Both the position numbers and the translations under genes were made by a program. Below the pieces are notes generated by a model. That model was not told where the DNA came from. It worked only from the letters and a program-made list of their open reading frames with translations, and did not search any database. This document shows, piece by piece, positions 26,201 through 59,763 of a DNA stretch of 64,000 nucleotides. Source of the DNA: a virus; UHGV virus genome UHGV-1372088; one strand, 5' to 3'. Positions within the stretch are counted from its first letter, which is position 1. The number at the start of each line of letters is the position of its first letter.

Positions 26201-26729
26201 GGGCGACATTGGTTCCTTCGCCATCAACATCGCACAGCACCGCACGCGTAAAGTGCCGAAGGCGACATGGCAATGGTTCGAGCTGGCCAGATTCCGTCGC
26301 CAGAGCTTCGACCAGGTGATCAACATTCGCGGCGGTCTATTGCAGACCGACAGCATCACCATCGACGGCGGCGCGAAACTCCGGGCGGGTATGTCGTATT
26401 CTTCCGGCGCAGATGGAGGCCTTAATCCAGGATTCCTGTCACACGCCATGTTGTTGCGTGCCACTGGCGCAACTTCTGGCGGCGGCAGCATGGAGATCGG
26501 CATTGAGCTTATGTACGAAACAGGTGGGTGGGACCGCCTGCTGACGGCACAAGGGGAGATGAACGTCGACAATATGTCGTTTGTTGTTCCAGCTGGCAGT
26601 GGGGATGCAGTTCTTCGTTATGGTTGTTATCTTGACCGTAACGGGCAAATGGTATTAACCATCCTTTCACGATTCGACGCTTTTTCGGCGCGGAATAACA
26701 ATGTAATTCGTGGATCGTCCACACCGTAA
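11217..26729 (+). CDS. giant central tail fibre / host specificity protein (lambda J-like N- and C-termini with about 10 inserted beta-sandwich + repeat-stalk modules)
   Basis: Uninterrupted 15.5-kb ORF (5170 aa); N-terminus resembles lambda gpJ; dozens of about 35-aa repeats (ADASALQTLQNTVTQQGKDI...SLNNSL.TTN.NVAKK); about 10 beta-rich domains each ending ..DDF.ViTDvTDA; C-terminus ADRFALINTS... J-like. Confidence 0.85.
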   Translation: MEQFKKRKLPEIIAGAGGKKSSGSSRTPVEADDTVNSNVKVSILDLLGEGVIGGLKDGAKSIFLNDLPLQNSDDTYNHSGVTWWFRDGSQDQSIIEGFDYTETPKTIGLQVKKTSAVTMAVDSDSADRFRVILKFPSLKSVDKKTGDTSGTSVTYKFQVSSAGGAFVDVAPEGESSGTVTLTAKKAGVYYRSYILNLPKPGSKYQVRVVRVTDDNKDTTYLANDIYVDTVGEIINTNMNYPNSALVGLRVNSEQFGSSMPSRSYLISGMKIRVPSNYDEVTNEYRGTWDGSFKLMSSSNPAWILYDLVTNKRYGLGEFVRESMFDLGQLYQIGRYCDALVDDGFGGKEKRFAINTQITTLQDAYRCVQDIAGAFRGMVYWAGGMVHVTQDSPSDPIAIYSNSNVIDGRFSYKGSARKDRPSVALITYNNKEDNYKQNIEYVEDLEAIERYGIRKTESVAFGCTSRGMAHRVGLWTLYTGRMESDVITFQTGMDSAFLVPGDVILIHDKFRAGRRNSGRVVASTANSITLDSTVDMTKAGTITFINAEGRMISRDILESGVVSKVTFKDAVNEADRPVADGIWVISQSDLKPLQARVVGVTQGEDGVGSTITCIQNNPSKYAAIDDGAVLIPQNTTVLDPTFSKPENLKITEGTYLSSPGNLNVSLTATWEGKSAEYWVSWRRSDAGNVSNWQTAKVNEEQFEVKPVAESGKYDFQVYGVSVSGRKTEILSTTYQVLGTMTPPGAPSSLTAVGDYRQIILGWSNPSSVDLDHIQIYASKTNDVTKATLLAKSTTTNFTHSGLEDSVTWYYWIRSANKRGMTSDWSSKLGTSAMTRDVLSFLQNKITESELAKDLLADIDSKAVAAEVDASIEDAKSEATAQVEAAKKEASSALSAAQVTLNNAINQEATDRNNAVADEAKQRSQAISAEADARTKAISDEAIARADAITKESDTRTRAMADEVTARNKAVADEAAARTKAVSDEAVARAKAVSDEVAARTKAVADEATARAKAISDEAAARATAISDSVAVEATARAKAIADSASSLSDKIEKEVTDRVKAVSDLDTKTANAISSESSSRIAAISDEAKTRADAILQEKNSRQAEIKNVSAQMQTANESLAQQISQVAAGTGEQFDSLKIWYFDAQTTEGWSGNKSAILSADGWIRSGNGVDAWLTSPAGLAIAGASYRFMKMRIRKVGNPVWEGAIRWITKSGDSFNNTNFITVSEPEYNAQGVATLTASDIKWNNDTVHQIRLDLSISTDDSNYIEVDWIAVGRPTPGAGMAALQDEKTARTNADAAEAASRSTLATQLRGSYDGTDITKLSSGLIFQEQQARVTADKVEATARQSLETKVNDSVSSINKSLDTLNTKDQAMASDITGLKSSLDDKADASAVQTLKATVEQQGSNISTQGQSITKLQGDLNTTNTNVGKKADQTAMTALQGTVTQQGKDIAAANSSISTLKSSLDTTNDAVAKKADATAVSDLSSRVSATEGSVSSQGDSIVQLNNSLSNALADSDASAKTPNNLIVNPSFERGMDGYIGASSLSTVVTVQIPHVGTKALKIDPGSSVSPGQYIDFVKGRTYEIGVWVKQVSGTTDNGQGNNKLRVGNSAGAPVFEVPFANLTIDWTKVSKRWKATETGSLPVTLSNYLTAGNRYFDDFYVIDVTDAVNIDASASAISSLQSTVTQQGKDISSQSTSIAGLNNSLNTTNENVAKKADSSAVQTLQNTVTQQGKDISAANSDITNLKGSLDATNDKVATKADASAMSDLASRVSQNEKGIATQSDSLTKLSNKVSSIDVGGVNLITNGDMSAAPVSLLSTTTSFKSFDRTVTADVRGMSVVTPRSITLSVWFKELSSGFGTTKPFTSVVIGKSAAGDNWGVRFYASNGSVSQKGDMFVWTGTINLKAGDTLFNDPTTIRFILEDKTQKTGAIFYRVKLENGNIATDWSASPDEVKSGLDANASALNALTTRVASTEGNVESQGNSITSLKNDLATTNANVSKKADSSAVATIQSTVTQQGKDIASSASDISSLKNSLATTDSNVAKKADASALQTLQNTVTQQGKDLTSVGNRATALENSLKTTNDNVATKADASALSTLQNTVSQHGDSIASQSDSITSLKNSVGSLVNMGDNLVQDSSFDNGGQTFRTQQNSGTSGSIVAFGAFGENSAGVRMVKVNGTSPGLFANGKLPVPVNGARKYRYIVRAKGVSGAMNMLLRRWNFNGNTEGAYEDKNNTLTTDWQTITWDTSFSPKDGVDGQSFGIYCHPNNGEIWIDSFQVFDITDATNNETTASALSNLSTTVSRQGETVTSQGTAITKLQNDLSSTKTDLAKKADASALQTLQSTVTDQGKTLTSQGDAITALNNTVNTVKGDVAKKADSSALQNLQSTVTQQGKDISTNASNITALTGNLATTNAAVATKADASALNNLTTRVTQNEKNISSQSDAVTKLSNTVSNIAVGSANLIPNSGTMEGWSDVISDTYRGNKVFSFTRKANSSSYVQSNEIVLAGPVDSDSYVYSFWAKAAKDGTVINAYFYNPSNTTGSETSQGVKGSSSDGSAAITLTTSWARYWVKWTHSPTTGTKRFIPARLNNSSTADQTVFISSPQLETGNVVTDWKAADSDFASASALSTLTSRVTSDEGVISSQGSAIADLKNSLATTNSTVATKADASALSSLQNTVTKQGTDLKSASDSITTLKNSIAATDANVAKKADASALQTLQSTVSTQGDKIASQGNSITSLGNSLDTVKGDVAKKADTTALNNLSTRVSNAEDKISSSSDAITSLNSSLNQQSKRGANILPDGTFESYSSGYNITNGRVIVTADDSHGGNKCIRVTRPNDYTNYTDNSDNHIFSGFQVRDNAVFYVECWVKLDAKSTTMDGSVQIAVGMSLQYQDNSWQWPALIKSAKDLSADTWTKVSGYLKSSKSGIKQAMVRISIPNVSTVKAGNSFLVDDFVITDVTDAYNAQQTADATASAVSTLQTTVSRQGDSITSQGDSITTLNNGLATANKAIGTKADASALSSLQNTVTQQGEDVAANTNNITALSNQVVNGKQDTWARRIYKCQLANAGTEPTFSDIQGLSPVFMDEVADAARMDFSGAGSYVVAHYKAMVRVAADTTISVSPGSRVFDDSGAVYVNGVRQAAALSGTAVLNFTLSAGWNTVEFLVNQWTGNAYVNLGFKLGDKVAELYSGLGVSSLSSALNSISSNVSKVGDQVSSNSTAITSLKNGLSDTNSTVAKKADASALQTLQNTVTQQGKDIASQSDSVTNLSNALSNVSIGGVNLIKNSGDMAGWSGKTNEIFRGNAVISATTKAGSSYRDLKEITLDAPVDNAEYVYSFFAKGGENGQSMTAYFYNPNSTISSVSSQGVSGGDVDGRMSFTLTTEWVRYWVKWKQKPGTGSKRLILARIQASSTKDQTVSITSPKLEVGNMPTEWSPAPSDMASSNDLSSLKTTVDANSGAIQSVTSRVQKTEDNISTQNTAITKLQGDLSTTNNLFSTKADSTALQTLSGRVDKTESSISTQNDAITKLNSSLDTTNKAVAKKAEQSSLDTLSGRVSSTENGITAANSSITSLNAAIRAENASSGDLITNPTFDPQYAQMGFTVVTTDTDGVPANCPFRYAAKLASRDHHPNFNAIVATLGDVFEISVLVACGAGNADFNLYLCTANGPTGGIGAPLYNGGNTKATSTWTRVTWKFTVSQAMVDKGYIRPFLQINQSSPFGTIWYVTDWHMRNITAASKAQDTANATSKAVDSLTSTVNQQGSDISSIGSRTTSLENGLSTTNANVSKKADSSALQTLQNSVTQQGNDISGQGSRVTSLENNLTAGANLIPNPAMLNGAQGWGGSETTVDGYAAVVSSSGWGPSSSYFQVTPGDIIDLSLMSQSAGAASISWGLRFDGPGLSNFCLYAPALTFAAGEKKSVSAAITVPAGATKAMFQASARATSARTVYNIIATRRDAGTKANSSAIDTLNSTVKTQGDTLSSIGSRTTSLENGLSSANSALSLKADASALSSLTNTVTQQGKDLDAAEANITAANTSITSMQASLTRRTVFTVTAKGNGNSANHGFFDESGKNLFTPGRSYALITFKANSDGSTVINTSKTYDVFGSANNGKAMSDDIAALANGVYVCVMTYDEPSGQRNSIASALELLGGTTEVINSLPYRGAYILLGRKGMKAGDGLELRAPTGGDSSAFISTSVEFVNGVMMGLGAAGGVMMKADANASAITTLQNTVKQQGDTIASSSSAITSLQNDMRTVNDNVSKKADASALQTLQNTVTQQGKDISTQSASLTQLNNSLSATNASIDASGKIPGNLIVNSSFERDKDGYTGWSSIASVIAASVPHSGSKILKLAAGGSVLVGQDVTYLKGRTYKIGAWAKQDSGTVIQAADNTKFRIADSTGLLASSVYGPFTSNWQEISFTWRPGKDVTAATQITAYLSAGAMYFDDFYVIDITDRVDLDATVSAVSGLTTRVSNAEGNISSQSDSITTLNNGLSTLNKTVSTKADATALSSLQNTVTQQGKDISSASGSITSLQSSLNTIKVQSNPWIDGTFETYDNNQQLGGSTAIVTTDFKNSGNKCLKVTRPANTSGNSDKTIGSYSAVRQSAKYRVEFWAMMPASEAPPSGWTVVVGLHSINKDGGNDWQGIAFDEAGLGGRDQWVKFTGVVKVSPSVTRSHVWISTRGQSGSNTPGYAVYIDDFVITDITDAADAQATADANATAISSLQTKVSDIDGKVTAQTSQLSSMQSKVDASSSKVDQLSKTISDSQSTQASLNTSLQSQIDAQASANIKNQADLNSAATSIATIKSTQSTQATQLSAIAKQQTDMTASLDNQSASIQTLQESVANNDSLKSTWMVKMETNSAGQKYAAGIALGVDGKSQQSQFLVQADRFALINTSNGNTTTPFVIDNGVTYMNAAYIKDGAITNAKIGGEIRSDNFVDGSQGWRVGKDGSSQFHNVVVRGHVEANSGSFRGAVYATDGWFQGTVYANRIEGDIGSFAINIAQHRTRKVPKATWQWFELARFRRQSFDQVINIRGGLLQTDSITIDGGAKLRAGMSYSSGADGGLNPGFLSHAMLLRATGATSGGGSMEIGIELMYETGGWDRLLTAQGEMNVDNMSFVVPAGSGDAVLRYGCYLDRNGQMVLTILSRFDAFSARNNNVIRGSSTP

Positions 26730-26782: not shown

Positions 26783-28288
26783 ATGAGTATGTACGAAGTT
26801 GGCACCGTAGCGGGTGCCGCAAATCAGGCGAAAGTGACTGGTACGACGACGAAATGGTCCAATGCCGCGCTGGGTGTCCAGCAAGGTTCTATTCTGGTTG
26901 TTTACAGGAGCGGCAATGCAGATCTGTATGCGATCAAGTCTGTCGATAGCGACACACAGTTAACGCTGTCCAGAAATATCACTGTCGCTTTCTCTGGCGC
27001 GTCGTATGGCATTATTACGTCAGAGACAGCCAGCACGTCAGCTTTTGCCAATCAGCTCGCCAGCGCGTTCTCCCTTTGGCGTAGCGTCGTCGAAGGATGG
27101 TCTGCTGCGCTGACGTCGACGGGCAACATTACGATGACAGATCCCATCACAGGAGTGTCAGTTACGGTCCCTGCCATTAATGGCATGGCCAGGATTGCCG
27201 GCGGCAACAACTTAACCGGAACGCAGAGCCTCGACAGCGACGACTCCGGTTTTATCCTCGGAAAAAATGGCGACATAGGTCTTATCAAGAAAAGCGGAAC
27301 CTATGGGAAGGTTATGGTGGGAAAATCGTCTCGATTCTCAGTCGTTCGAAGCGACAAAGACCGGATATCGGCAACTGACGAACAGACTGAAATTTTTGGC
27401 GTTGAAGCTAACGGTGACGTCAAAGTCGCGAACTCACTTTATGCTAAAGGTGTTCTACAAAGTGATTATCAGGTTAAAGCGCAAAGTATCGAGCTTTCCT
27501 ATACAACACCGTATATCGACTTCCATTATGGGAATAGCACGGCAGACTATACTCACCGAATTATTGCGGATGACCCGGTCGCATTAGGGTTCGAGTGCAG
27601 TCTTCGAGTTGCCAAAAATATTCGCGCGCAGGAGGGTATCAAAGCCGATTTATATGTGCGTGCCGCCAGTCGTGCCGGCATCATAGCGCAATATGACAGT
27701 GACCCCGGCGGAAATATCGGTGATCTTCGAGTTGCCCCAATCGTATGCAGTCAATTCGCAACTGTAGGCGCTGATGGAAACGGGAACGCTGGCGCGAATT
27801 TTTGGTTTGAGGAACACATAGGTTACAACCACCGTCTGGTAACTCAGGTCAAGGGATATGGTGCGGCGGTTCAGTATTGGCATCATCGCAGCGATGGGAT
27901 GATTTGGAATAGTCAACGTGGGGATGTGGCATGGGCTGCAACCTCTGATAAAAATCTCAAGCATGATATTAAGCCCACAGACGGTCGACAGTCTCTGGAT
28001 AACATCAACGCTATGGACCTCGTTACGTTTGTTTATAACGATGACGAAAAAGGCAGAACGAGACGTGGCGTGATAGCGCAGCAACTTCAGGAGATTGACC
28101 CATGCTATGTGAAGGTTAGTCGTGGCGAAATACTCAAAGATGAAACTGAAGACGGCACGGGGACTCCGGTTGTTGTTGAGAAGCTCGTTCTGGACACCAA
28201 CCCTCTCTTGATGGATGCACTGAGTGCCATTCAGGTTTTGTCGAGAGAGATTGAATCCCTAAAAGCTGAGTTAGCCTTGCGCTCTTAG
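26783..28288 (+). CDS. side tail fibre with C-terminal intramolecular chaperone (peptidase S74) domain
   Basis: 501 aa; C-terminal SDKNLKHDIKP...GVIAQQLQEIDP...LSREIESLKAELAL matches the autoproteolytic chaperone domain of T5 pb1 / endosialidase-type fibres. Confidence 0.65.
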   Translation: MSMYEVGTVAGAANQAKVTGTTTKWSNAALGVQQGSILVVYRSGNADLYAIKSVDSDTQLTLSRNITVAFSGASYGIITSETASTSAFANQLASAFSLWRSVVEGWSAALTSTGNITMTDPITGVSVTVPAINGMARIAGGNNLTGTQSLDSDDSGFILGKNGDIGLIKKSGTYGKVMVGKSSRFSVVRSDKDRISATDEQTEIFGVEANGDVKVANSLYAKGVLQSDYQVKAQSIELSYTTPYIDFHYGNSTADYTHRIIADDPVALGFECSLRVAKNIRAQEGIKADLYVRAASRAGIIAQYDSDPGGNIGDLRVAPIVCSQFATVGADGNGNAGANFWFEEHIGYNHRLVTQVKGYGAAVQYWHHRSDGMIWNSQRGDVAWAATSDKNLKHDIKPTDGRQSLDNINAMDLVTFVYNDDEKGRTRRGVIAQQLQEIDPCYVKVSRGEILKDETEDGTGTPVVVEKLVLDTNPLLMDALSAIQVLSREIESLKAELALRS

Positions 28289-28375
28289 GTTGCGATGATA
28301 TGTAAGTGTATACATACTAGCCTAGTGCGGCTATCATACAGGCTGGAATCGGTTTGACAGACATGGAGGACGAAA

Positions 28376-28690
28376 ATGTCAAACGAAATGCACGGTGTGA
28401 GCCGCACGGAAGTGGAGCGCATTGCGCAAATTGTCGCACGAGAGGTCTTGCAGGGCTTGCGCGACGAGGTTGGGGAAGAGGTCGATAAGCGTCTTAAGGC
28501 TTATCTCGGAGACATGACGTCGACGCAGCACAGCATTCAACACGCGAATCTGGACAAGCTGCTCAACCGAATGGACGCCATCTCAAGCGGATTTTTCGGT
28601 GGGGTCGTTTCGAAGGTGACGTCTTTCCTGATCACAGCATTGCTGCTGGGGCTTGCAGCATACGGCGTTAAAAGTGGAATTGGACAGTAA
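28376..28690 (+). CDS. membrane protein, possible holin/antiholin
   Basis: 104 aa with a single C-terminal TM helix (VTSFLITALLLGLAAYGV); first gene of putative lysis cassette. Confidence 0.35.
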   Translation: MSNEMHGVSRTEVERIAQIVAREVLQGLRDEVGEEVDKRLKAYLGDMTSTQHSIQHANLDKLLNRMDAISSGFFGGVVSKVTSFLITALLLGLAAYGVKSGIGQ

Positions 28691-28700
28691 GGGGAAAAGG

Positions 28701-29390
28701 ATGACTCCAAGAGGTATTCGTAACAACAACCCAGGCAATCTGGATAACACGAACCCGTGGCAAGGTCTTGTGGCCAACAAGAACGAATCGCGGTTCGCAA
28801 CATTCAAGGATGCGACATGGGGGATTCGTGCATTGGCGGTCACGCTGATCACTTATCACGACAAGCGCAAAGCGAAAGACGGCTCTCGAATCGACACGAT
28901 CCGCGAAGTTGTCGAGCGCTGGGCGCCACCGTCCGAAAACGACACCACGGCCTACGTTAAGGCGGTGTCCAAGGCGGTTGGCGTGTCGCCAGATATGGAA
29001 ATCGATTTGCACCAGTACCAGATTCTGAAGCCTACCGTCGAGGCGATTATTCGTCACGAGAACGGGCAGGGTCCGCTGAAGACGGCAAATACGTGGTATT
29101 CCGACGACGTCATCGACGAAGGTTTACGCCGTGCCGGTGTTGTGAAGCCGACCAAGGCAGTGAAGTCCATCCCTGTTACCAAGGAGACGGCCGGCGCTTC
29201 ATTGACCGCCTCTCTCGGTATTGCGCAGCTGGCGCAGATTGCACCGCAGATCAACGATGCAATGAACAAGGCGCAGGACAACATTTCCAGCGGTGATTGG
29301 GTGCGCATTGGGTTTGGTGTCGCGACGATCGTGATTGCCGGCTTCATTGCCTGGTCGCAGGTTCGCAAGTATCAGAAAGGGACAATCTGA
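28701..29390 (+). CDS. putative muralytic/endolysin-like protein with C-terminal membrane anchor
   Basis: 229 aa; N-terminal GIRNNNPGNL motif; C-terminal TM helix WVRIGFGVATIVIAGFIAW; lies between membrane protein and spanins. Confidence 0.35.
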   Translation: MTPRGIRNNNPGNLDNTNPWQGLVANKNESRFATFKDATWGIRALAVTLITYHDKRKAKDGSRIDTIREVVERWAPPSENDTTAYVKAVSKAVGVSPDMEIDLHQYQILKPTVEAIIRHENGQGPLKTANTWYSDDVIDEGLRRAGVVKPTKAVKSIPVTKETAGASLTASLGIAQLAQIAPQINDAMNKAQDNISSGDWVRIGFGVATIVIAGFIAWSQVRKYQKGTI

Positions 29391-29647
29391 TGGGTGTAGT
29401 AGTCGCTTTGATTAGTAAGTTCAAAGTGGCGCTGGCGACGGCTTCGGCCGTCGTTTTAGTGCTTTTCGGCGCTTACATGTTAGGTGGTCGCTATGCTCGG
29501 CGAGCGGTCGAAATTAAAGAGATCCGCGAAGAAGGTCTTCGCAATAAGAAAATCGTAGAGGCAAAGGTTGAAACATCAAAGCAAGTTGCAAGTCGGTCTG
29601 ATGATGCCGTGCATTCTGAGCTTCAGTCTGATTGGATGCGCGATTAA
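29390..29647 (+). CDS. i-spanin (Rz-like)
   Basis: N-terminal TM helix then charged coiled-coil region; start overlaps previous stop (TGATG). Confidence 0.5.
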   Translation: MGVVVALISKFKVALATASAVVLVLFGAYMLGGRYARRAVEIKEIREEGLRNKKIVEAKVETSKQVASRSDDAVHSELQSDWMRD

Positions 29648-29801
29648 AAAGCCGGTCACAATAGGCTTTTGTGACGTGTCGGCACCAATATACGCAAGTC
29701 GATCCGATCTCATGACGCCGGAAACGGAGCGTCAGATCCTCGAACATAATTTACTAGGTAAGAGACTGTGTGCTTGGGGAAAAAAGAAATCCGTTGATTG
29801 A
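29568..29801 (+). CDS. o-spanin (Rz1-like) lipoprotein in +1 frame overlapping i-spanin
   Basis: Signal peptide with lipobox SLIGC; gene begins inside i-spanin gene in a different frame (Rz/Rz1 architecture). Confidence 0.5.
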   Translation: MKHQSKLQVGLMMPCILSFSLIGCAIKKPVTIGFCDVSAPIYASRSDLMTPETERQILEHNLLGKRLCAWGKKKSVD

Positions 29802-29806
29802 TGGCT

Positions 29807-29839
29807 GAGCGCCCGCATTTAGAGGCGCTCGTTTTTTTT
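29807..29839 (+). terminator. rho-independent terminator after lysis cassette
   Basis: GAGCGCCCGCATTTAGAGGCGCTC hairpin followed by T9. Confidence 0.7.
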
Positions 29840-30070
29840 GTTAGTTGCAGCCTGATTAATGTCTGCACATCGTCGCAACGTAACGCATTTTGAGACGTTC
29901 TAATCGTTACTGGTACGTTTGCTTATCGACCCTCTCTCCATGCCACCAGCACCCCAATCCCTTCGTTTAAAACGACACCCAAGCCAAGCTATTGCATTTT
30001 ACAGCGAATCGAAAAGCGGCTAGTATTCCCTAAACAAGAAAACAACATGTTTACTAACGAGGCAGTGTAT

Positions 30071-30736
30071 ATGCAAACTACCGTTATAGTTGTTGGTGGA
30101 ACAAAAGGCGGACCGGGCAAATCAACAATCGCCCAGCAAATAGCCGCCTATCTCATCCTGAAAAAGAAAAAAACCGTGTTCATTCTCGACATCGACCCCC
30201 AGATGACGACCGCTCGCTGGTGCGAAGACCGCTCTGAGAATGAAGATTTGACCATCATCCCATTCGCCGCCAAACAGCACGATATCGATCAGACTATCGC
30301 CAGCTTGCGAGGAAGATATGACTTTGTGGTTATCGATGCAGGGGGCTTTGACTCCGACATTCAGCGACATGCTCTGAGACACTCTGACGTCGTTCTTCTG
30401 CCGCTAAGACCGAAACGTCGCGATCTGCGTTCACTTGGCGATGTGGATACCGTTGTCGCGGCAGCCAGAGCGTCTAATCCAGATCTGAAAGCCTACGTCG
30501 TCATGAATCAGTGTCCGTCATTGCCGTCTCAGGCGAAGCGCATTCTGGTGGCGAAGGATGTATGTGAGACGTTTGGTCTGGAAACCACACCGGTCAATCT
30601 TTACAACCGCAACGTGTACGACGATGCAGAGTGGGCGGGGCGTTCCATCTTTGAAGTGACTGGCTCTGAACGTGATCCGAAAGCGGAAGCGGAAATTCAA
30701 GAAGTCACCAATTTTATTCTTTCTGGAGGTAATTAA
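30071..30736 (+). CDS. parA: ParA/Soj-family partition ATPase
   Basis: Deviant Walker A VVGGTKGGPGKST at N-terminus, ParA-like length; followed by small DNA-binding partner gene. ATG 30071 preferred over 30047 (RBS GAGG). Confidence 0.75.
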   Translation: MQTTVIVVGGTKGGPGKSTIAQQIAAYLILKKKKTVFILDIDPQMTTARWCEDRSENEDLTIIPFAAKQHDIDQTIASLRGRYDFVVIDAGGFDSDIQRHALRHSDVVLLPLRPKRRDLRSLGDVDTVVAAARASNPDLKAYVVMNQCPSLPSQAKRILVAKDVCETFGLETTPVNLYNRNVYDDAEWAGRSIFEVTGSERDPKAEAEIQEVTNFILSGGN

Positions 30737-30738
30737 GC

Positions 30739-31179
30739 ATGGCGGACGATTTGAAGAAGGCTGGTGGGTTTGGTGACTTGACAAGCGGTGCTCGTCAATC
30801 GAAGCGCATCGAAGAAGCCGACAAACCGGCTCGCGTATCAAACAAGACCCAAGGCGCTCCACTGAAAGGTAAGACGGCAATCAGAAGTCGCACCATCAGC
30901 CTGGAAGAAGAGTACGTTGAGTTCATGGAAATTCTGGTTAAGCGCCTTCCTGACCTAAGTCTGTCACGATCAGATATCGTCCGTGTTGCACTGGTCGCTC
31001 TCAGCAAGATGAAAGCCGAGAAGCTGAAGTCTGTCATCGAACAGAACCGTTTGACCACCAGCAATGAAGTCGGTCTTCGCATTACCGAACTGGAACGAGA
31101 GTTCGACAAAGCCGAACGAGAAGAGCTGTTGAAGACTATCACGCCGGAAGAGTTGGAAAGGCTAATTGACCGCAGCTGA
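30739..31179 (+). CDS. ParB-like centromere-binding partner
   Basis: 146 aa, Lys/Arg-rich N-terminus, helical C-terminus; immediately downstream of parA and upstream of repeat region. Confidence 0.45.
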   Translation: MADDLKKAGGFGDLTSGARQSKRIEEADKPARVSNKTQGAPLKGKTAIRSRTISLEEEYVEFMEILVKRLPDLSLSRSDIVRVALVALSKMKAEKLKSVIEQNRLTTSNEVGLRITELEREFDKAEREELLKTITPEELERLIDRS

Positions 31180-31196
31180 TTTTGGAAAGCTGGCCT

Positions 31197-31503
31197 ACCC
31201 CTATATGTTTTAAGATCTTTTAAAAGAAAGTTATTAAATATATACAGAGCTAGGCTTTTTAACGCATTCAAAAGGCTTGAAAAGACAACACCCAGATACC
31301 TTTCAGGTACTGGCTGTTAACGTCAAAACCCAGAGTCAAAACCACGGAGTAAGGCATCTGAAAGATGCCTGGCTCCGTTCAGTTAAAGACGGTTCTGGGG
31401 TACTTGTTTTAAGTCAAAGCCCAGCCTTTTCTTCCTTCAAAAAGACCTAGCTCTGTATATCTTTTAATACTTTCTTTTAAAGTCTTTAAAAACATATAGG
31501 GGT
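31197..31503. repeat. about 55-bp imperfect inverted repeats flanking a 190-bp core with GTCAAAACC iterons and a GGCATCTGAAAGATGCC hairpin (candidate parS and/or ori)
   Basis: Left arm CCCCTATATGTTTTAAGATCTTTTAAAAGAAAG...CAGAGCTAGG and its reverse complement at 31447-31503; direct repeats AGTCAAAACC x2 plus a variant; non-coding. Confidence 0.6.
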
Positions 31504-31634
31504 ATTCGACGTTCACCCCAGACCTCAAAAAGAAGCCGCCAAAGAACCTACATTTCCCACTTTTAAAAATCACGCAGCCACATTACACTTGGCACAATTG
31601 TAAGTATGTAAGTGTATACATAGGCATCATAAAA

Positions 31635-32357
31635 ATGATAAAGCTGCACATGGCGCTGGATTTCGAAAAGTACGACATTCTGGAGACGATGGATACCGCG
31701 ACAATGGACTTGTGGGTATCCCAGCACGTCGGTCTTTCCCGATGCAAGGCTGAATCGTCGCTGTACACCAGTAAGTGGTTCGACTACCGCACCATGCACC
31801 CTCTTGTGGCCACCTGTCTTTTTACCGAAGTGTATAAGCTCAAACACTCCCAGATTACCCGTACCCACGGAAGAGAGGATCTGGTGAAAGCCTACTTTAC
31901 CACAGGTTTGAAGAGAGTTTCATACCTTGACATGTCGAAGGCGAACATCACGTCTCTTTGGAAAGCGAGACAGGTGGCGGACAGGTACTGCGTCCCATAC
32001 GACTACTTTGTCGAGACCATCCTCAGCATCGCAGCATCGAGACTATGGGATAAGCTGCCGCGACCGCAGCATATGTGGCAGGAAGATCTCATTGAGATTT
32101 TTGAAGAGAAGATGAAGACGCGCATGAAGACCACCTTCGACGATTCCGATTTCAGCTTCCAGAACGCATCCCAGATTGTCAACCGTGAAATTCAGATGGC
32201 TTATTGCCAGTGGATCATCAACCGCGTGAAGGATATGCCGTCCAGCAAGCGTGTTTACGCTATCGCTAATGTCGCCGTCCTGAATCGCCTCGTGCCGATG
32301 TCCGTCATGCAGAAGTGCTTTCCGGCCGAGTCGGAGAGAGCTCAGGTCTTCTGTTGA
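31635..32357 (+). CDS. hypothetical protein (possible replication initiator by position)
   Basis: 240-aa ORF between repeat region and helicase gene, preceded by promoter-like motif; no recognisable motifs. Confidence 0.45.
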   Translation: MIKLHMALDFEKYDILETMDTATMDLWVSQHVGLSRCKAESSLYTSKWFDYRTMHPLVATCLFTEVYKLKHSQITRTHGREDLVKAYFTTGLKRVSYLDMSKANITSLWKARQVADRYCVPYDYFVETILSIAASRLWDKLPRPQHMWQEDLIEIFEEKMKTRMKTTFDDSDFSFQNASQIVNREIQMAYCQWIINRVKDMPSSKRVYAIANVAVLNRLVPMSVMQKCFPAESERAQVFC

Positions 32358-32422
32358 TGCCCTTGTGTAGTTTGAAATAATTAACCCATGAAACAAGTTG
32401 TTTAGGAAATAAGAGAAAGGAC

Positions 32423-33772
32423 ATGTCAGAAGATACCAGCGTATTGCACACCGGTAAGCCACTGTCTGAAGAGTTTAACGACGACTTTCAGAACCGCCTG
32501 GCCGCCTATTTTTGTCGCGACTTCCAGTTCACCAGCCGCGCCGGTGATTTGGTTGAGCCCGATCAGTTTTCAAGTGCAGCCAACGGCTTTCTGGTAGACC
32601 TGGTCGGTTCGTACTTCAAGATGTACCGCAGCATTCCTTCGACGAAGGTGCTGGTCGAGCTTGTTCTTCAGGCCAACAAAAAGGGTCGCATCCGCGCCGA
32701 GCTCATGCCAGATATTAAGGCGGCGATTGCCCGCTGCATCAAAGAGCCGCTGACGGACACGAATTACATGGTCGATAAGGTGGCCACGTTCGCTCGTTCC
32801 TGTGCTTTCGATGACGCGCTGATCAAAGCCGCCACGCTGAAGGAGAAGGGCGAGTTCGAGAAAGCGATGGTCGTCATGAACAAGGTCAACATGGTTGGCG
32901 CTTCAGGCGCAGACGATGTTTACGATTATCTGGCCCGTGAAGAGGAACGTCTGGCCGCGCGTGACTTTGAAGCGTCGGATGATTACGTGCCAAACTCCAT
33001 CCCGACCGGCGTCCGCATTCTGGATAAGACGCTTTATCAGAAGGGCTGGGGCCGCCGTGAGATGGTTCTGATTATGGGCTTCGCTAAAGCAGGTAAGTCG
33101 ACTGCGATGGGCGAGTTCGCAGTAAACGCAATTCTGGCGGGTTATAACGCGCTCTACGTCTCTCTGGAAGTGCACACATCCATTTTGTCAGACAGGTTCG
33201 ATGCGCGTCTCTCTGAGCTTCCTATGGAGAAATTGACGGAACGACGCGATGAGGTGCATCGGAAGCTACGCGATATCGGCGCGGATGGGAAACTCGGTTC
33301 GCTATGGATTGTCGAGCGTCCGTCTGGTTCCTTCTCTCCGGCAGACCTGGACCGTCTTATCGATAGCATGGGAGCATCCGGGAAGAAGGTCGATATGGTT
33401 GTTGTCGACTATGCCGATCTGATGAGAGCGACGAACCCATCCAAAGACGACCGCGTTGATGTGAAGAACATTTACACCGATCTTCGTGCCGTGTTCGATA
33501 AACATAACGTTGCAGGTATGACTGCTTCGCAGACAAACCGTGACGGTGGAAGTGCAGAAACAGCGACCATGATGCACGCCGCAGACAACATCGAGAAGGT
33601 CCGTATCGCCGACCTGATTATCTCAATCAACAAAACGGAAGAGGAAGCGGAGAAAGGCGAAGCGCGTTTGTTCTTTGCGGGCTCTCGTAACCAGAAAGGC
33701 GGGTTTGCTCTGCGTGTCCAGCAAGATCTGGAGCAAATGCGATTCATTAAGAGCGTGTTAGGCGTCATCTAA
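32423..33772 (+). CDS. DnaB-like replicative DNA helicase
   Basis: 449 aa; C-terminal RecA-fold with Walker A GFAKAGKST and DnaB-like motifs. Confidence 0.7.
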   Translation: MSEDTSVLHTGKPLSEEFNDDFQNRLAAYFCRDFQFTSRAGDLVEPDQFSSAANGFLVDLVGSYFKMYRSIPSTKVLVELVLQANKKGRIRAELMPDIKAAIARCIKEPLTDTNYMVDKVATFARSCAFDDALIKAATLKEKGEFEKAMVVMNKVNMVGASGADDVYDYLAREEERLAARDFEASDDYVPNSIPTGVRILDKTLYQKGWGRREMVLIMGFAKAGKSTAMGEFAVNAILAGYNALYVSLEVHTSILSDRFDARLSELPMEKLTERRDEVHRKLRDIGADGKLGSLWIVERPSGSFSPADLDRLIDSMGASGKKVDMVVVDYADLMRATNPSKDDRVDVKNIYTDLRAVFDKHNVAGMTASQTNRDGGSAETATMMHAADNIEKVRIADLIISINKTEEEAEKGEARLFFAGSRNQKGGFALRVQQDLEQMRFIKSVLGVI

Positions 33773-33808
33773 AAAAAAGGTGCGGGCTGAGGCTACGCAC
33801 CTTATTTC
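33771..33808. terminator. bidirectional-type terminator (A8-hairpin-T-rich)
   Basis: AAAAAAAAGGTGCGGGCTGAGGCTACGCACCTTATTTC. Confidence 0.55.
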
Positions 33809-33903
33809 AGTATCGAAATCAAACTTAACCGGTTTTTTGGAACCGAGAAAATACACATGAGATTAAATCTTACCAAAAGCGCCATTTCTGGCAAGAGGTA
33901 GAT

Positions 33904-35022
33904 ATGTCAGAGCTTCAGGAATTATCGGAAGAGCTGGACTTCGAGCAGTGGCTTGACTCCGAGGGCGTAACGTATCGTCGCGGTTCTGTTTCGTCTCGCG
34001 GTCGAGAGCTGAATATCAAAGAGTGTCCGCACTGCGGCAGCGCCGGCTGGAAACTTTATTTCAACGTAACGACCGGCCTGGGTAAGTGCTTCGCGGGCGA
34101 TCACCCGGAAGACGTTCAGTTTAACAAGCTGACATTCATGAAAAGCCATTTAGGTTGCAACTGGACGCAGCTTAAACAGACGATCAAAGACGAGCTCCGT
34201 CAGCAGGGCTGGAAGCCAAAGACAACCGAAGAAGAGACGCTGGAAAGCAAGCGGGAGCTGGTCAGCGATCTGACGTTGCCATTTCACTACATGCTTCCCA
34301 TCGAGGGCCAGCTGCCAACGTATCTGGTGGGGCGAAACGTGGGCGTCGACCTGACCACGTATTTCGATTTGCGCTACTGCGTGAACGGCCAGCACGTCTA
34401 TCTCGACTATGTGACGAAGAAGCCGAAGATGCAGTGTTTCGATATGCGCATCCTGATCCCCGTCTACAGTCTCGATGGTGAGATGAAGACGTTCCAGGGG
34501 CGTGACGTCACCGGCGTAGCGGAGAAGCGCTATCTCTTCCCCAACGGACTGCCGGCGTCGGGGAAATTTCTCTACAACGGCCACAATGCGATTGGCAAAA
34601 AGACGGTCGTCGTTTGTGAAGGTGTTTTCGATGTCATAGGGGCCAAGCGAGCGCTGGCGACGGAAATATCCATCAGAGAGCTTGTGGAGCCAGTGGGGAC
34701 GTTCGGTATGCACTTGAGTGGAAACGTCCGTGGTGAGGATGAAGACCAGCTGGGGGCGTTTCTGGAGCTCAAAAAGCAGGGGCTGGAAACCGTCGTCATG
34801 ATGTGGGATAGCGAGAAGCAAGCGATACACAACACGTTTGGCGCGGCCAGACGTCTTATTTCGATTGGGTTGAAAGTCAGGATCGCCTGTTTGGGCGAGG
34901 AAGGACTCGACCCAGGCTCAGCAACTAACGAGCAAATCATCCGGGCCTTCTATCGTGCCAAGCAGTACACCAAGGCACTGGAAATGATGGCAATGTTAAA
35001 AGGAATCGAGGCGTTAAAATGA
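33904..35022 (+). CDS. DNA primase (zinc-binding + TOPRIM)
   Basis: CPHCGS...C...H zinc motif near N-terminus; TOPRIM-like VVVCEGVFDV and DxD region; preceded by a 14-codon leader ORF sharing the GAGAAAATACACATG start context. Confidence 0.65.
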   Translation: MSELQELSEELDFEQWLDSEGVTYRRGSVSSRGRELNIKECPHCGSAGWKLYFNVTTGLGKCFAGDHPEDVQFNKLTFMKSHLGCNWTQLKQTIKDELRQQGWKPKTTEEETLESKRELVSDLTLPFHYMLPIEGQLPTYLVGRNVGVDLTTYFDLRYCVNGQHVYLDYVTKKPKMQCFDMRILIPVYSLDGEMKTFQGRDVTGVAEKRYLFPNGLPASGKFLYNGHNAIGKKTVVVCEGVFDVIGAKRALATEISIRELVEPVGTFGMHLSGNVRGEDEDQLGAFLELKKQGLETVVMMWDSEKQAIHNTFGAARRLISIGLKVRIACLGEEGLDPGSATNEQIIRAFYRAKQYTKALEMMAMLKGIEALK

Positions 35023-35834: not shown

Positions 35835-35913
35835 CCTCAACAATTCACTGCCATGCCGTTGCACTTCGTTTATGATATATGTATAAGTAAGTGCATACAT
35901 AGGTGCAACGAGC

Positions 35914-36357
35914 ATGAGCAAGATAAATATCAGCAAACTTCCTTCAATTTCCAACAACAGCTATTACCTGAAGTGCTCTGCGCCGTCTGCGAACGGCAAA
36001 GATATGGGGTGTAGCTACACGGTATGTCAACACACTGTCATTACGTTTCAGGCCGGAAAACTTAAGGGATTTGATGGTTGTCGCAAGGCGATCGCTGAGC
36101 GCAAATGCAAAGCCGTTGGAATGATGGTCGAGGAAATTAAGTCGGGGGTTCCGATTTACTTCGTCGATAGCGCTGAAGAAATCCGTCTCGTTGAAGAGGA
36201 ACGAGCCAGGTCAAGCATCTTCGCCGCGCGGAAAAAATCGTCTCCGACGTTCGCATCTCGTATCGCCAAAACCGAATCAGTGCCGGCCGCTAAGCCAGCG
36301 GCTCCAATCGTAGATATTTACGCGGAGCTCGTCGCGGCCGAATTGTCCAGTAAATAA
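35914..36357 (+). CDS. hypothetical protein
   Basis: 147-aa ORF after promoter-like TAAGTGCATACATAGG motif. Confidence 0.45.
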   Translation: MSKINISKLPSISNNSYYLKCSAPSANGKDMGCSYTVCQHTVITFQAGKLKGFDGCRKAIAERKCKAVGMMVEEIKSGVPIYFVDSAEEIRLVEEERARSSIFAARKKSSPTFASRIAKTESVPAAKPAAPIVDIYAELVAAELSSK

Positions 36358-43943: not shown

Positions 43944-44195
43944 ATGTTCACTGAAACGGTACTGGCCAAACGCACATCGTCTATTAGCGAGTTCAAGAAG
44001 AACCCGTCCGCCGCAATGAGTGAGTCGCATGGCGAGCCTGTCGCTGTCCTGAGCCACAACAAGCCGGCCTTTTACTGCGTCCCACCTGCTCTGTTTGCCC
44101 TCATGATGGACCAGATTGGCGACCAGCTCCTTCTGGATAAGGCTATGTCTCGACTGGATGATGATGAGGTGGAAGTCACCCTGGATCAGCTTTAA
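43944..44195 (+). CDS. Phd/YefM-family antitoxin
   Basis: 83 aa; ...SISEFKKNPSAAM...EPVAVLSHNKPAFYCVP matches the Phd/YefM antitoxin fold signature; acidic C-terminus; immediately upstream of toxin with TAATG overlap. Confidence 0.6.
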   Translation: MFTETVLAKRTSSISEFKKNPSAAMSESHGEPVAVLSHNKPAFYCVPPALFALMMDQIGDQLLLDKAMSRLDDDEVEVTLDQL

Positions 44196-44518
44196 TGGGC
44201 GACAATTTTACAACAAAGCTGACGTTCAAAAGGCTTGCTCTGGCCGAGTGGGAGTCGCTATCCACACCCATAAGGGATAAGTTCAAGAAGGTTTTGGCTA
44301 AGCGTCTGGAGTCACTGGATTCGCTGACGATGCCGAAAAATAGGCTCTCTCTTCAGCATAATTGCTACAAGATTAAGCTGAAGAACGACGGCTATCGTTT
44401 GGCCTATACGGTAAAAAATGACGAGTCCGGCACCGTCACCGTCGTAGTAACTGTCGTTGCGGTGGACCGCCGTGATGAAATTTACAATGAGTTGAAAAAG
44501 AGACTTAATGACGAATAG
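44195..44518 (+). CDS. RelE/ParE-family toxin
   Basis: 107 aa; C-terminal ...CYKIKLKNDGYRLAYTVKND...VTVVVTVVAVDRRDEIY matches the RelE/ParE pattern (yRirvGdyRviY...ilrighRkdvY). Confidence 0.6.
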   Translation: MGDNFTTKLTFKRLALAEWESLSTPIRDKFKKVLAKRLESLDSLTMPKNRLSLQHNCYKIKLKNDGYRLAYTVKNDESGTVTVVVTVVAVDRRDEIYNELKKRLNDE

Positions 44519-44993: not shown

Positions 44994-46016
44994 ATGAGCC
45001 TCGACCTCGATCACCAAAAAGCCATCGAAAACAGTTCAGTTGAGACAGTCGCCTATCTGGAACAGTGTCGGGCGATGTCCGGCAAGCAGCTGCTGGACGC
45101 CCCGGACGAAATGACATTTGAGATGGGCTTCCGCATTTTCACCAGGCTTTCACTTCTCGTCACCCGGCGCCGGCCGGAGATAGCGGTCCACTGTGTCCTG
45201 ATTCACATCATGCCGATGTTGCAATCAAAACAAATTGCCGCCATAAAGCGATCCGACATTAACAAAATCATAAATGGCCTGGTGCTGGACGGCAAGATTG
45301 TCCAGAGCCGACGAGTCTTTTCTGTTATGAAACAGTTCCTTAGCTGGTGCGAGTTCCAGGGCCACATCGAGACGTCGCCCCTGGCGTCCATCTCGCTAAA
45401 TAAGGTTGCCGGCGGCGTTCGCATGAAGCCGAGAGAGCGGATCTTGAGCGACGAAGAGATAAACCTGTTCTGGACGATGTGGGATTTGGCCGACGTTGAC
45501 GACTGCACCAAGTGGGCCGCCCGCCTCATTCTCTGTTCAGCCAGAAGACCGGATGAGGTGCTAAGGGCCAGGCGCAGTGAGTTCGATCTTGATAGAGATG
45601 TATGGAATCAGGGTACGCGCAACAAGTCCGCAAGACGACACACACTCCCCATAAGTCCAATTATGAGGGAGTGTATTGAGTCATTGTTTTTGGCCGGAGG
45701 TAACAGCGAGTGGCTGGTTCCGTCAAAAAGAAGGGAGGGCAATCCGGTATCCAAAGTGCTGATTTCTCAGGCATCACGTCGGATACAGGGATTGTCCTAC
45801 AGTGGATTTAATGAACCTTTTGAGATTCGAGACTTAAGGCGCACAGCCAGAAGTGCGTTTTCGCGCCTTAAGATCTCTCAAGAGGTAGCACGACAAATTA
45901 TGAATCACTCGCCAGAAGGTCTGGATAACGTATACAACAAGCACGACTACTTGGATGAAATGGCCGAAGCTATGTTGAAATATTCAACCTTTTTAAGAAG
46001 TTGCATTAAAGGGTAG
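44994..46016 (+). CDS. int: tyrosine site-specific recombinase/integrase
   Basis: 340 aa; C-terminal catalytic region ...RDLRRTARSAFS...IMNHSPEGLDNVYNKHDYLDE (R..HxxR...Y pattern of tyrosine recombinases). Confidence 0.75.
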   Translation: MSLDLDHQKAIENSSVETVAYLEQCRAMSGKQLLDAPDEMTFEMGFRIFTRLSLLVTRRRPEIAVHCVLIHIMPMLQSKQIAAIKRSDINKIINGLVLDGKIVQSRRVFSVMKQFLSWCEFQGHIETSPLASISLNKVAGGVRMKPRERILSDEEINLFWTMWDLADVDDCTKWAARLILCSARRPDEVLRARRSEFDLDRDVWNQGTRNKSARRHTLPISPIMRECIESLFLAGGNSEWLVPSKRREGNPVSKVLISQASRRIQGLSYSGFNEPFEIRDLRRTARSAFSRLKISQEVARQIMNHSPEGLDNVYNKHDYLDEMAEAMLKYSTFLRSCIKG

Positions 46017-49097: not shown

Positions 49098-49207
49098 CGT
49101 TCTTTTTTCCAACCTAAAAATATGTATGTACTTACTTGCTTACCTATATCGAGTAAGTACAATTCATATAACTAAACGACATTACTCAAATAACGACGGA
49201 GATACGC

Positions 49208-58678: not shown

Positions 58679-58734
58679 CTTGTTTGTATGTATTCATTTA
58701 CATACTATATGTGTAAGAAAGCAACGAGGAGCTT

Positions 58735-59750: not shown

Positions 59751-59763
59751 CTCACTTCAAATC

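What the first reader, a model, noticed from the sequence alone, without database searches (positions are those of the whole stretch)
30071..31503. ParA/ParB-like partition operon plus centromere-like repeat region: evidence for a plasmid-prophage lifestyle
A ParA ATPase with a deviant Walker A (KGGPGKST) and a small partner protein are followed by a structured non-coding region (see next finding). Active partition genes are a hallmark of phage-plasmids (P1, N15, SSU5-type) and are not expected in strictly lytic or integrating siphoviruses. Together with the toxin-antitoxin pair (43944-44518) and the recombinase (44994-46016), this suggests the element is maintained as a low-copy extrachromosomal replicon.
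Basis: partly seen in the sequence, partly recalled or inferred. Interest (0 to 1): 0.7.

Follow-up and report, generated by a model that had tools for sequence, protein, structure and literature searches.

The report
Partition genes of an SSU5-like phage-plasmid
The window comes from a known kind of virus that lives in Klebsiella as a low-copy circular plasmid; the ParA partition gene and its small partner are real, but the folded DNA next to them is built from repeats found elsewhere in the genome and is not shown to be the centromere.

Summary
30071-30736 encodes a 221-aa ParA with the deviant Walker A GGTKGGPGKST. 30739-31179 encodes a 146-aa partner that starts 3 nt after the parA stop. 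A strongly structured non-coding stretch follows (65-nt inverted arms, fold z = -9.2).

The plasmid-prophage reading is supported, but it is not new. The window is 98.8-99.6% identical to Klebsiella plasmid records of 104-113 kb; the one fetched is circular. It has the gene order of the SSU5 phage-plasmid supergroup. ParA is a small type Ib ATPase nearest to ParF of TP228. The partner is not a ParB/Spo0J protein. It belongs to a tiny family confined to SSU5-like elements and may be ribbon-helix-helix, which I could not confirm.

The "centromere-like" label is not supported as stated. Each arm is a ~70-bp unit, and a third copy lies in front of the small-terminase gene. In relatives the homologous element stays with the replication genes, not with parAB. 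The centre holds GTCAAAACC repeats that also form a tandem array elsewhere in the plasmid. The parA promoter carries a palindrome present about 19 times per plasmid. No element is private to parAB, so the centromere remains unidentified. This is an ordinary, divergent member of a known kind.

The parts
29807..29839 (+). Terminator-like hairpin (GAGCGCC..GGCGCTC) followed by a T8 run. It closes the upstream lysis genes and sets the left boundary of the parA control region.
   Evidence: Read directly from the sequence. The automatic scan did not list it because the loop is 10 nt.
29998..30026 (+). Sigma-70-like promoter of the parA operon (TTTACA, 17 nt spacer, TAGTAT).
   Evidence: It is the only promoter-like site found in 29600-31700. 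A -35/-10 pair lies at the same relative position in SSU5, p09EL50, pKpn-type and pCAV1335-118.
30040..30052 (.). Palindrome AAACAACATGTTT between the -10 and the Shine-Dalgarno of parA. It is one copy of a dispersed operator-like motif.
   Evidence: Five copies in the window against 0.37 expected, with 0 of 100 shuffles reaching 5. Each lies just downstream of a -10-like hexamer. The rest of pINF102.5 holds 14 more, and SSU5 holds 11 with perfect 6-nt arms. pMT1, which lacks the partner gene, has 4-5, and Moellerella, which has the partner gene, has none.
30071..30736 (+). parA: a 221-aa type Ib deviant-Walker-A partition ATPase with no N-terminal DNA-binding domain.
   Evidence: The best solved relative is ParF of TP228 (E 2e-13, aligned over residues 10-211). 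Walker A GGxKGGPGKST, DIDxQ and (I/V)DAGGFDS are invariant in six lineages.
30739..31179 (+). The ParA partner (146 aa), presumed centromere-binding adaptor. It has a disordered basic N-terminus, a conserved core I(K/R)SRTxSxE(D/E)E(Y/F)...(T/S)RSD(V/I)xRxA, and C-terminal helices.
   Evidence: No Pfam or NCBIfam match; PHROG 5111, unknown function. It is 34% identical to SSU5_034. An exhaustive search of 1.84 billion representatives gave only 9 hits. Pfam RHH_1 matches 3 of 12 family members weakly, best E 0.005. The AlphaFold2 model has pLDDT 73, with helices at 55-69 and 77-89 after an extended stretch at 48-54. Fold searches gave no informative match.
31190..31262 (+). Left copy of a ~70-bp dispersed unit: a degenerate box (GCCTACCCCTATATG), an AT-rich tract, then the box TATATACAGAGCTAGGC and a T-run.
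   Evidence: The unit is homologous to the SSU5-type palindrome ACCTGCTTCTGTATATA..AT..TATACGGAAGCAGGT.
31263..31437 (.). Centre of the inverted repeat. It holds GTCAAAACC twice, 13 bp apart (31322, 31335), degenerate copies near 31284 and 31411, and a hairpin at 31344-31378.
   Evidence: The same 9-mer forms a perfect 13-bp tandem array of four copies, plus one more, in a 1-kb non-coding stretch of pINF102.5 outside the window. No Rfam match.
31438..31510 (-). Right copy of the dispersed unit, inverted.
   Evidence: The mean column identity among the three copies is 86%. The third copy lies immediately upstream of terS in pINF102.5.
31635..35022 (+). Replication genes that the inverted repeat accompanies in relatives: the phrog_2500 gene (31635-32357), a palindrome (32391-32403), a DnaB-like helicase (32423-33772) and a primase (33904-35022).
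   Evidence: Synteny is seen in SSU5, Cyrano, PhiR41_1, pCAV1335-118, Moellerella and ten genome contigs.
43944..44518 (+). Type II toxin-antitoxin pair: Phd/YefM antitoxin (43944-44195) and ParE toxin (44195-44518).
   Evidence: Pfam gives 31.0 bits against a cutoff of 29.8, and 31.4 against 23. The plasmid record annotates them the same way.
44994..46016 (+). Tyrosine recombinase. Whether it resolves plasmid dimers or integrates the element was not decided here. Its end overlaps a 126-aa gene on the minus strand (46006-46386), whose positional counterpart in Moellerella is annotated as a helix-turn-helix regulator.
   Evidence: Pfam Phage_integrase, 30.7 bits against a cutoff of 27.1. Three CTTGTTT/AAACAAG half-sites lie in front of the 126-aa gene.

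Best explanation
The window is part of a phage-plasmid of the SSU5 supergroup, from a rare Klebsiella lineage. Genes 30071-31179 are its plasmid-partition operon. It consists of a small type Ib ParA ATPase (ParF-like, no DNA-binding N-terminus) and a translationally coupled 146-aa adaptor protein. By analogy with type Ib systems, the adaptor dimer would bind centromere DNA through its conserved core, which may be ribbon-helix-helix. Its flexible basic N-terminus (conserved GDL-x-K/R motif) would stimulate the ATPase of nucleoid-bound ParA, so that plasmid copies are moved apart before division. Shown here: the identity and class of ParA, the operon structure, the restriction of the partner family to SSU5-like elements, and the plasmid state of near-identical DNA. 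Inferred: DNA binding by the partner, its fold, and ATPase stimulation. Plasmid replication in the near-identical plasmid uses a RepFIB-type RepA with 21-bp iterons, which lie just beyond the window end. A Phd/ParE addiction pair and a tyrosine recombinase add to stable maintenance. The structured DNA after the partner gene is not a private centromere. It is two inverted copies of a ~70-bp dispersed unit flanking GTCAAAACC repeats and a hairpin. Both repeat families recur elsewhere in the replicon, at the heads of the replication and packaging operons and in a large non-coding array. One of these families is the best candidate for the partner's binding site, and I put that at about 0.4 overall. 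It is equally possible that they serve other regulators.
For: ParA class. Operon structure. Partner family: homolog of SSU5_034, found in 778 plasmid records, nearly all about 100-115 kb and non-mobilizable, and only 9 hits among 1.84 billion representative proteins. Weak RHH_1 matches and compatible secondary structure. Plasmid state: 99.6% identity to circular pINF102.5 and two further full-length Klebsiella plasmid matches. No phage record matches at nucleotide level. SSU5 synteny. RepA and iterons in pINF102.5. Toxin-antitoxin pair and recombinase. In the SSU5-like phage-plasmid Cyrano, the ortholog of the partner gene (CYRAN_29) appears in the paper's table of prophage genes expressed above local background (value 9), and Cyrano is kept at about 5.5 copies per bacterium (PMC9928086). 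Dispersed nature of the repeats.
Confidence: 0.8

Rival explanations
1. One reading: the inverted-repeat region 31190-31510 is the dedicated centromere (parS) of this operon, bound by the partner protein.
For: It starts about 11-17 nt after the partner's stop codon. It is strongly structured. It contains short direct repeats in its centre. No other repeat-rich DNA flanks parAB. pCAV1335-118 has the same layout directly after its partner gene.
Against: The arms are copies of a unit also found before terS. In SSU5, pKpn-type, p09EL50, Moellerella, Kluyvera, Buttiauxella and Xenorhabdus elements, the homologous repeat lies 100-150 nt upstream of the phrog_2500 gene, with one to three cargo genes between it and parB. 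SSU5 and Moellerella carry further copies at other loci. pMT1 has no partner gene yet keeps a perfect copy before terS, although that region is almost identical to SSU5, so this point is weak.
Confidence: 0.15
2. The box units are dispersed centromeres or partition-linked regulatory sites, as in phage-plasmid N15, whose centromere sites are scattered and include sites near late genes. The partner would bind the box wherever it occurs (3 units in this lineage, 3 palindromes in SSU5, 9 boxes in Moellerella).
For: The box core (GAGCTAGG / GGAAGCAGG / GAGCACGG) is kept in every lineage that carries the partner, including Morganellaceae. The partner's putative DNA-reading stretch (I-K/R-S-R-T-x-S) is equally invariant. 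Single boxes occur in both orientations, which fits a protein-binding site better than a promoter. The N15 precedent is cited in PMC11652158 (Ravin, Rech and Lane 2008).
Against: Co-conservation is only correlative. The element is tightly tied to the phrog_2500 gene and to terS, which equally fits a transcription regulator. No covariation test was possible because neither side varies.
Confidence: 0.25
3. The structured region has nothing to do with partition. It is a control region at the head of the replication operon: operators for a phage regulator, a bidirectional terminator or insulator between parAB and the replication genes, and/or a lytic origin with GTCAAAACC iterons for the phrog_2500 protein.
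For: The repeat is constantly adjacent to the phrog_2500 gene in all lineages, and Acinetobacter AB-group elements without the partner also have an inverted repeat there. The same unit precedes terS, the start of the late operon. A central hairpin lies between the units in both the window and pCAV1335-118. GTCAAAACC arrays lie in a large non-coding stretch typical of an origin or regulatory region.
Against: The plasmid origin is elsewhere (RepA with iterons). The phrog_2500 protein has no recognisable DNA-binding domain. The units lack a good TAnnnT -10 and a conserved -35. The Acinetobacter repeat does not recur at terS.
Confidence: 0.4
4. The ParA-like gene and its partner are not a partition system. 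They could be a toxin-antitoxin-like or regulatory pair; the Cyrano record labels the partner 'RelE/ParE putative toxin'.
For: The Cyrano annotation. The partner has no recognised domain. ParA/MinD-type ATPases have many cellular roles.
Against: The partner has no similarity to RelE/ParE in Pfam or NCBIfam, and a true ParE toxin is encoded elsewhere in the window. ParA aligns over its full length with the plasmid-partition ATPase ParF and with the NCBIfam ParA_partition model. The gene pair occurs in hundreds of large low-copy plasmid records.
Confidence: 0.05

Closest known systems
ParF-ParG-parH of plasmid TP228 (type Ib partition)
   Same: A small ParA of about 200-220 aa with a deviant Walker A and no N-terminal DNA-binding domain; ParF is the best solved relative. 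A small partner gene follows directly. The partner has a disordered basic N-terminal tail and a core whose pattern and weak Pfam RHH_1 matches (3 of 12 family members) fit ribbon-helix-helix.
   Different: The partner shows no detectable sequence similarity to ParG. It is twice as long, with extra C-terminal helices. No array of short repeats lies upstream of parA. From my own knowledge, parH is such an array.
delta-omega of pSM19035 and IncC-KorB of RK2 (a partition adaptor that is also a global regulator with dispersed sites)
   Same: Repeat families around parAB recur at the heads of other operons across the replicon.
   Different: There is no evidence that the partner binds them. The AAACAA..TTGTTT palindrome is absent from Moellerella, which has the partner, and present in pMT1, which lacks it. 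That argues against the partner being its binder.
SopAB and the dispersed centromere sites of linear phage-plasmid N15
   Same: A phage-plasmid with several copies of a palindromic element scattered over the genome, including near late genes (N15 literature cited in PMC11652158).
   Different: N15 uses a type Ia SopA and an HTH SopB (my own knowledge). Here ParA is type Ib and the partner is unrelated. The centromere function of the box is untested.
SSU5 gp33/gp34 and the SSU5 phage-plasmid supergroup (PMC7969092)
   Same: Orthologous operon at the same place: lysis genes, then parA and partner, then phrog_2500, DnaB and primase. Circular plasmid of about 104-113 kb with a RepFIB-type RepA.
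   Different: The proteins are divergent: ParA is 62% and the partner 34% identical to SSU5. The partner is 146 aa against 96-120 aa. Two inverted box units with a 179-bp centre replace a single palindrome. There are GTCAAAACC repeats specific to this lineage, and a 5170-aa tail protein.

Membership tests
Type Ib ParA partition ATPase (ParF / delta / pB171 ParA class) | Deviant Walker A motif xKGGxxK[ST] with the signature lysine | tested here: met
   GGTKGGPGKST at residues 9-19, invariant in six lineages.
Type Ib ParA partition ATPase (ParF / delta / pB171 ParA class) | Small size (about 200-230 aa) with no N-terminal HTH/regulatory domain | tested here: met
   The protein is 221 aa, and the Walker A starts at residue 9. 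It aligns with ParF (206 aa) over residues 10-211.
Type Ib ParA partition ATPase (ParF / delta / pB171 ParA class) | Sequence membership in a curated ParA partition model | tested here: inconclusive
   NCBIfam NF041546 ParA_partition: E 8e-38 and 130 bits over the full model length, but below the curated cutoff of 180. PHROG 164 'ParA-like partition protein': E 2e-46.
Type Ib ParA partition ATPase (ParF / delta / pB171 ParA class) | A cognate centromere of repeated short sites next to the operon | tested here: inconclusive
   No tandem array was found in 29650-31700. The candidates (palindrome at 30040, box units, GTCAAAACC pair) are all dispersed elements.
Type Ib ParA partition ATPase (ParF / delta / pB171 ParA class) | Confers plasmid stabilisation and ATP-dependent positioning | not testable with these tools
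   This needs a stabilisation assay or microscopy.
Ribbon-helix-helix centromere-binding proteins (ParG / omega / CopG-like) | N-terminal beta-strand followed by two helices, with a G/x-x-S/T/N turn before helix 2 | tested here: inconclusive
Ribbon-helix-helix centromere-binding proteins (ParG / omega / CopG-like) | Dimerises to form the two-stranded sheet and binds repeated DNA sites | not testable with these tools
   No multimer or DNA-complex prediction was available.
ParB/Spo0J/KorB family (HTH plus ParB N-terminal domain) | ParB N-terminal (ParBc/Srx-like) domain and HTH | tested here: not met
   Pfam and NCBIfam give no match for the 146-aa partner. Two genuine ParB/Srx-domain genes exist elsewhere in the replicon, near terS and outside the window.
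SSU5 supergroup phage-plasmids | Shared gene order and orthologous phage backbone, occurring as an extrachromosomal plasmid | tested here: met
   Near-identity to a circular Klebsiella plasmid. Synteny with SSU5. Tail, lysis, DnaB, primase, ligase, SSB and recombination genes are present.
SSU5 supergroup phage-plasmids | Forms infective virions | not testable with these tools
   No phage isolate of this lineage is in the phage collection at nucleotide level.
Type II toxin-antitoxin Phd/YefM-ParE | Adjacent small antitoxin and toxin genes matching both families | tested here: met
   PF02604, 31.0 bits against 29.8; PF05016, 31.4 bits against 23. The two genes overlap by one base.

The most novel reading that the evidence does not exclude
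The small partner protein founds an undescribed class of centromere-binding adaptor specific to SSU5-type phage-plasmids. It would bind the dispersed ~70-bp box units (and/or the GTCAAAACC repeats). Partition complexes would then assemble at the heads of the replication and packaging operons and couple plasmid segregation to control of phage replication and late genes. This would be a type Ib counterpart of what N15 does with SopB.
Probability: 0.25. Interest if true: 0.6.

Novelty: new member of a known kind. Interest (0 to 1): 0.3.

Why it matters
SSU5-type phage-plasmids are among the commonest large plasmids of Klebsiella, E. coli, Salmonella and Enterobacter. The partner gene alone is found in 778 plasmid records, and such elements carry resistance genes (PMC9600943). 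Their partition system is known only from annotation. The partner protein is labelled hypothetical, and in one curated record it is labelled a toxin. In the literature I could search, no centromere has been mapped. This analysis narrows the search to three defined repeat families. It also shows that the obvious hairpin region next to the genes should not be annotated as parS without a test. For this window itself the result is ordinary: a divergent member of a described family.

Tried and rejected
1. Structured region as a known RNA: no Rfam match in 29600-31800 or in the GTCAAAACC array region.

2. Structured region as the plasmid origin: rejected. The near-identical plasmid has a RepFIB-type RepA (370 aa, missing from the PLSDB gene table) flanked by 21-bp iterons at another locus, homologous to the SSU5 and pMT1 RepA.

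3. The partner as binder of the AAACAA..TTGTTT palindrome (a KorB- or omega-like global regulator): made unlikely. pMT1 has the palindromes but no partner gene. Moellerella has the partner, with the same conserved core, but no palindromes. Half-sites cluster in front of the 126-aa gene beside the recombinase.

4. Box unit as a promoter: no TAnnnT -10, no conserved -35, and single copies point in both directions.

6. Word-indexed homolog search for the partner: it found only its own cluster.

7. Looking for the parAB module on an unrelated backbone to see which cis-element travels with it: all 10 genome loci were SSU5-like, or had cargo directly after parB.

8. Acinetobacter AB-group elements as a control lacking the partner: they have their own inverted repeat before the phrog_2500 homolog, but it does not recur at terS, so the result is inconclusive.

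9. The Gilcrease and Casjens 2018 paper on plasmid prophages and one 2026 preprint could not be read.
Full report
**What is there.** Region 30071-31179 holds two co-oriented genes, each with a good ribosome-binding site. The second starts 3 nt after the stop codon of the first. The first gene (221 aa) begins MQTTVIVVGGTKGGPGKST, which is a deviant Walker A motif with the signature lysine. It matches Pfam MipZ, AAA_31, CbiA and ParA. It matches PHROG 164 'ParA-like partition protein' at E 2e-46. It also matches NCBIfam NF041546 'ParA family partition ATPase' over the full model length, but below the curated cutoff (130 against 180 bits). Its nearest solved relative is ParF of plasmid TP228 (E 2e-13, aligned over residues 10-211). 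The protein is short and the Walker A starts at residue 9, so it is a type Ib ParA with no DNA-binding N-terminus. The Walker A, DIDxQ and (I/V)DAGGFDS motifs are invariant in six divergent lineages.

**Where the window comes from.** Window 28000-36000 is 99.6% identical over its whole length to plasmid pINF102.5 of Klebsiella pneumoniae (103,831 bp, circular, non-mobilizable). It is 98.8-99.4% identical over its whole length to two further Klebsiella plasmids of about 110-113 kb. A fourth record, from K. oxytoca, matches 58% of the stretch at 98.8%. No record in the phage collection matches at nucleotide level, either here or in the structural genes. At protein level, ParA is 62-64% identical to that of Salmonella phage SSU5 and of SSU5-like phage-plasmids of Klebsiella and E. 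coli. The gene order is that of SSU5: tail genes, lysis genes, parA, partner, phrog_2500 gene, DnaB-like helicase, primase, ligase, and so on. SSU5-type elements are a described supergroup of phage-plasmids (PMC7969092). The SSU5-like element Cyrano is kept at about 5.5 copies per bacterium, and the ortholog of the partner gene is listed among its prophage genes expressed above local background (PMC9928086). The plasmid-prophage interpretation is thus directly supported by database records, and it is not new.

**Other maintenance functions.** Genes 43944-44195 and 44195-44518 are a Phd/YefM antitoxin and a ParE toxin. Gene 44994-46016 is a tyrosine recombinase. All three pass Pfam gathering scores. 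The plasmid replicon is not in the window. In pINF102.5, a 370-aa RepA is flanked by 21-bp iterons (TATGCTGCCAGCGGT) at record positions about 44.4-45.8 kb, just beyond the window end. This RepA is homologous to those of SSU5 and pMT1 and is missing from the PLSDB gene table. That rules out the structured region near parAB as the plasmid origin.

**The structured region.** The non-coding stretch 31180-31634 contains inverted arms of 65 nt (83% complementary, 179 nt apart) and folds far better than shuffled sequence (z = -9.2). Three findings change how it should be read.

1. The arms are copies of a dispersed unit. Each arm is a ~70-bp unit, and a third, equally good copy lies immediately upstream of the small-terminase gene of pINF102.5. 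The mean column identity among the three copies is 86%. Each unit is itself a degenerate version of a palindrome found in SSU5: ACCTGCTTCTGTATATA, an AT-rich tract, then TATACGGAAGCAGGT.

2. The element follows the replication genes, not parAB. In SSU5, pKpn-type, p09EL50, Moellerella, Kluyvera, Buttiauxella and Xenorhabdus elements, the homologous inverted repeat always lies 100-150 nt upstream of the phrog_2500 gene. This holds even when one to three cargo genes, often on the other strand, lie between it and the partner gene.

3. The element recurs at other loci. SSU5 has three such palindromes: before terS, before the phrog_2500 gene, and after a methyltransferase gene. In the Moellerella plasmid the box is the most abundant dispersed 12-mer. 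It has nine copies, including the same three locations, and the single copies point in both orientations.

The element is therefore a dispersed protein-binding site or structural signal at the heads of operons. It is not a feature private to parAB.

**Two further repeat families touch the operon.** The first is the palindrome AAACAACATGTTT at 30040-30052, between the -10 and the ribosome-binding site of parA. It is one of 5 copies in the window (0.37 expected; 0 of 100 shuffles reach 5). Each copy lies just downstream of a -10-like hexamer and 15-30 nt before a start codon. The whole plasmid has about 19 copies, and SSU5 has 11 with perfect 6-nt arms. pMT1, which uses a P1-type ParAB and has no homolog of the partner, still has 4-5 copies. 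Moellerella, which has the partner with the same conserved core, has none. So this palindrome is probably the operator of a different regulator. Half-sites cluster in front of the 126-aa gene that overlaps the recombinase gene. The positional counterpart of that gene in Moellerella is annotated as a helix-turn-helix regulator.

The second family lies in the 179-bp centre of the inverted repeat. GTCAAAACC occurs there twice, 13 bp apart, with two degenerate copies and a hairpin. In pINF102.5 the same 9-mer forms a perfect 13-bp tandem array of four copies, plus one more, in a 1-kb non-coding stretch about 48 kb away (6 copies against 0.49 expected). SSU5 and pCAV1335-118 lack this motif, so it is specific to this lineage.

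**What this means for the centromere.** A type Ib ParA needs a cis-acting site, and none of the usual kind (a tandem array of short repeats next to the operon) is present. The candidates are the box units and the GTCAAAACC repeats. In favour of the box units, their core is conserved in every lineage that has the partner, in parallel with the invariant core of the partner. Dispersed centromeres also have a precedent in N15 (cited in PMC11652158). In favour of the GTCAAAACC repeats, they are lineage-specific, like the divergent 146-aa partner. Against both, they are equally well explained as regulatory sites, a terminator or insulator, or a lytic origin belonging to the replication and packaging operons.

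**Verdict.** The lifestyle inference is right, but it is already established for this family and directly visible in plasmid databases. The centromere assignment is unproven and, as a private parS, unlikely. The window is a divergent member of a known kind. What is worth keeping is the definition of three repeat families that make the SSU5-type centromere experimentally testable, and the caution that the partner gene is unannotated, or misannotated as a toxin, in public records.

Noticed in passing
window 30040, 32391, 53045, 59812, 62691 (13 bp each): The palindrome AAACA-N3-TGTTT occurs 5 times against 0.37 expected. Each copy lies just after a -10-like hexamer and 15-30 nt before a start codon. 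There are about 19 copies per plasmid and 11 in SSU5 with perfect 6-nt arms. It is probably the operator of a global regulator of the SSU5 backbone. The motif is absent from the Moellerella relative.
   Followed up: partly
L007 9808-9884 (pINF102.5 record coordinates, minus strand; outside the window): A third full copy of the ~70-bp unit that forms the inverted arms lies directly upstream of the small-terminase gene. It is followed by a copy of the AAACA..TGTTT palindrome.
   Followed up: yes
L007 27982-29044 (pINF102.5; outside the window): A 1-kb non-coding stretch holds several perfect tandem arrays: AAAGTCAAAACCC x4, GAAACGT x4 and AAACCTTA x4. It also holds two ~110-nt repeats, each with a GC-rich UUCG-type hairpin. 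This could be a lytic origin, a centromere or small-RNA genes. No Rfam match.
   Followed up: partly
window 11217-26729: A single 5170-aa open reading frame, annotated 'phage tail protein' in the plasmid record, occupies the position of the J-like tail tip protein. The corresponding SSU5 gene (17749-21906) encodes about 1385 aa. The window gene is exceptionally long.
   Followed up: no
window 58720-62542: This segment has no counterpart in the otherwise 97.6-99.6% identical plasmid pINF102.5. It looks like a replaced cargo segment, and it contains two of the palindrome-headed genes.
   Followed up: no
window 46006-46386 (minus strand) and 46400-46560: A 126-aa gene overlaps the end of the recombinase gene. 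Its positional counterpart in Moellerella is annotated as a helix-turn-helix regulator. Three AAACAAG/CTTGTTT half-sites lie in its upstream region. It is a candidate prophage repressor and binder of the dispersed palindrome.
   Followed up: partly
L009 9624-9983 (Escherichia phage Cyrano, CYRAN_29): The ortholog of the ParA partner is annotated 'RelE/ParE putative toxin' in a curated record. No RelE/ParE similarity was found for this family, so this is probably a misannotation.
   Followed up: partly
L007 44404-45760 (pINF102.5; outside the window): A 370-aa RepFIB-type RepA gene is flanked by 21-bp iterons (TATGCTGCCAGCGGT). It is not listed in the PLSDB gene table. It is the likely plasmid origin of this lineage.
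   Followed up: yes
window 31590-31625, 46450-46470, 49125-49165: A GTAAGTA/TAAGTAAGT motif recurs in front of many genes, here and in SSU5 (ATAAGTAAGTAC x4). It may be a promoter element specific to the backbone.
   Followed up: no
window 47816-48007: An 18-nt tandem repeat (10.7 copies) lies inside the VWA-domain gene 47031-49097. It encodes an acidic D/E-rich repeat.
   Followed up: no
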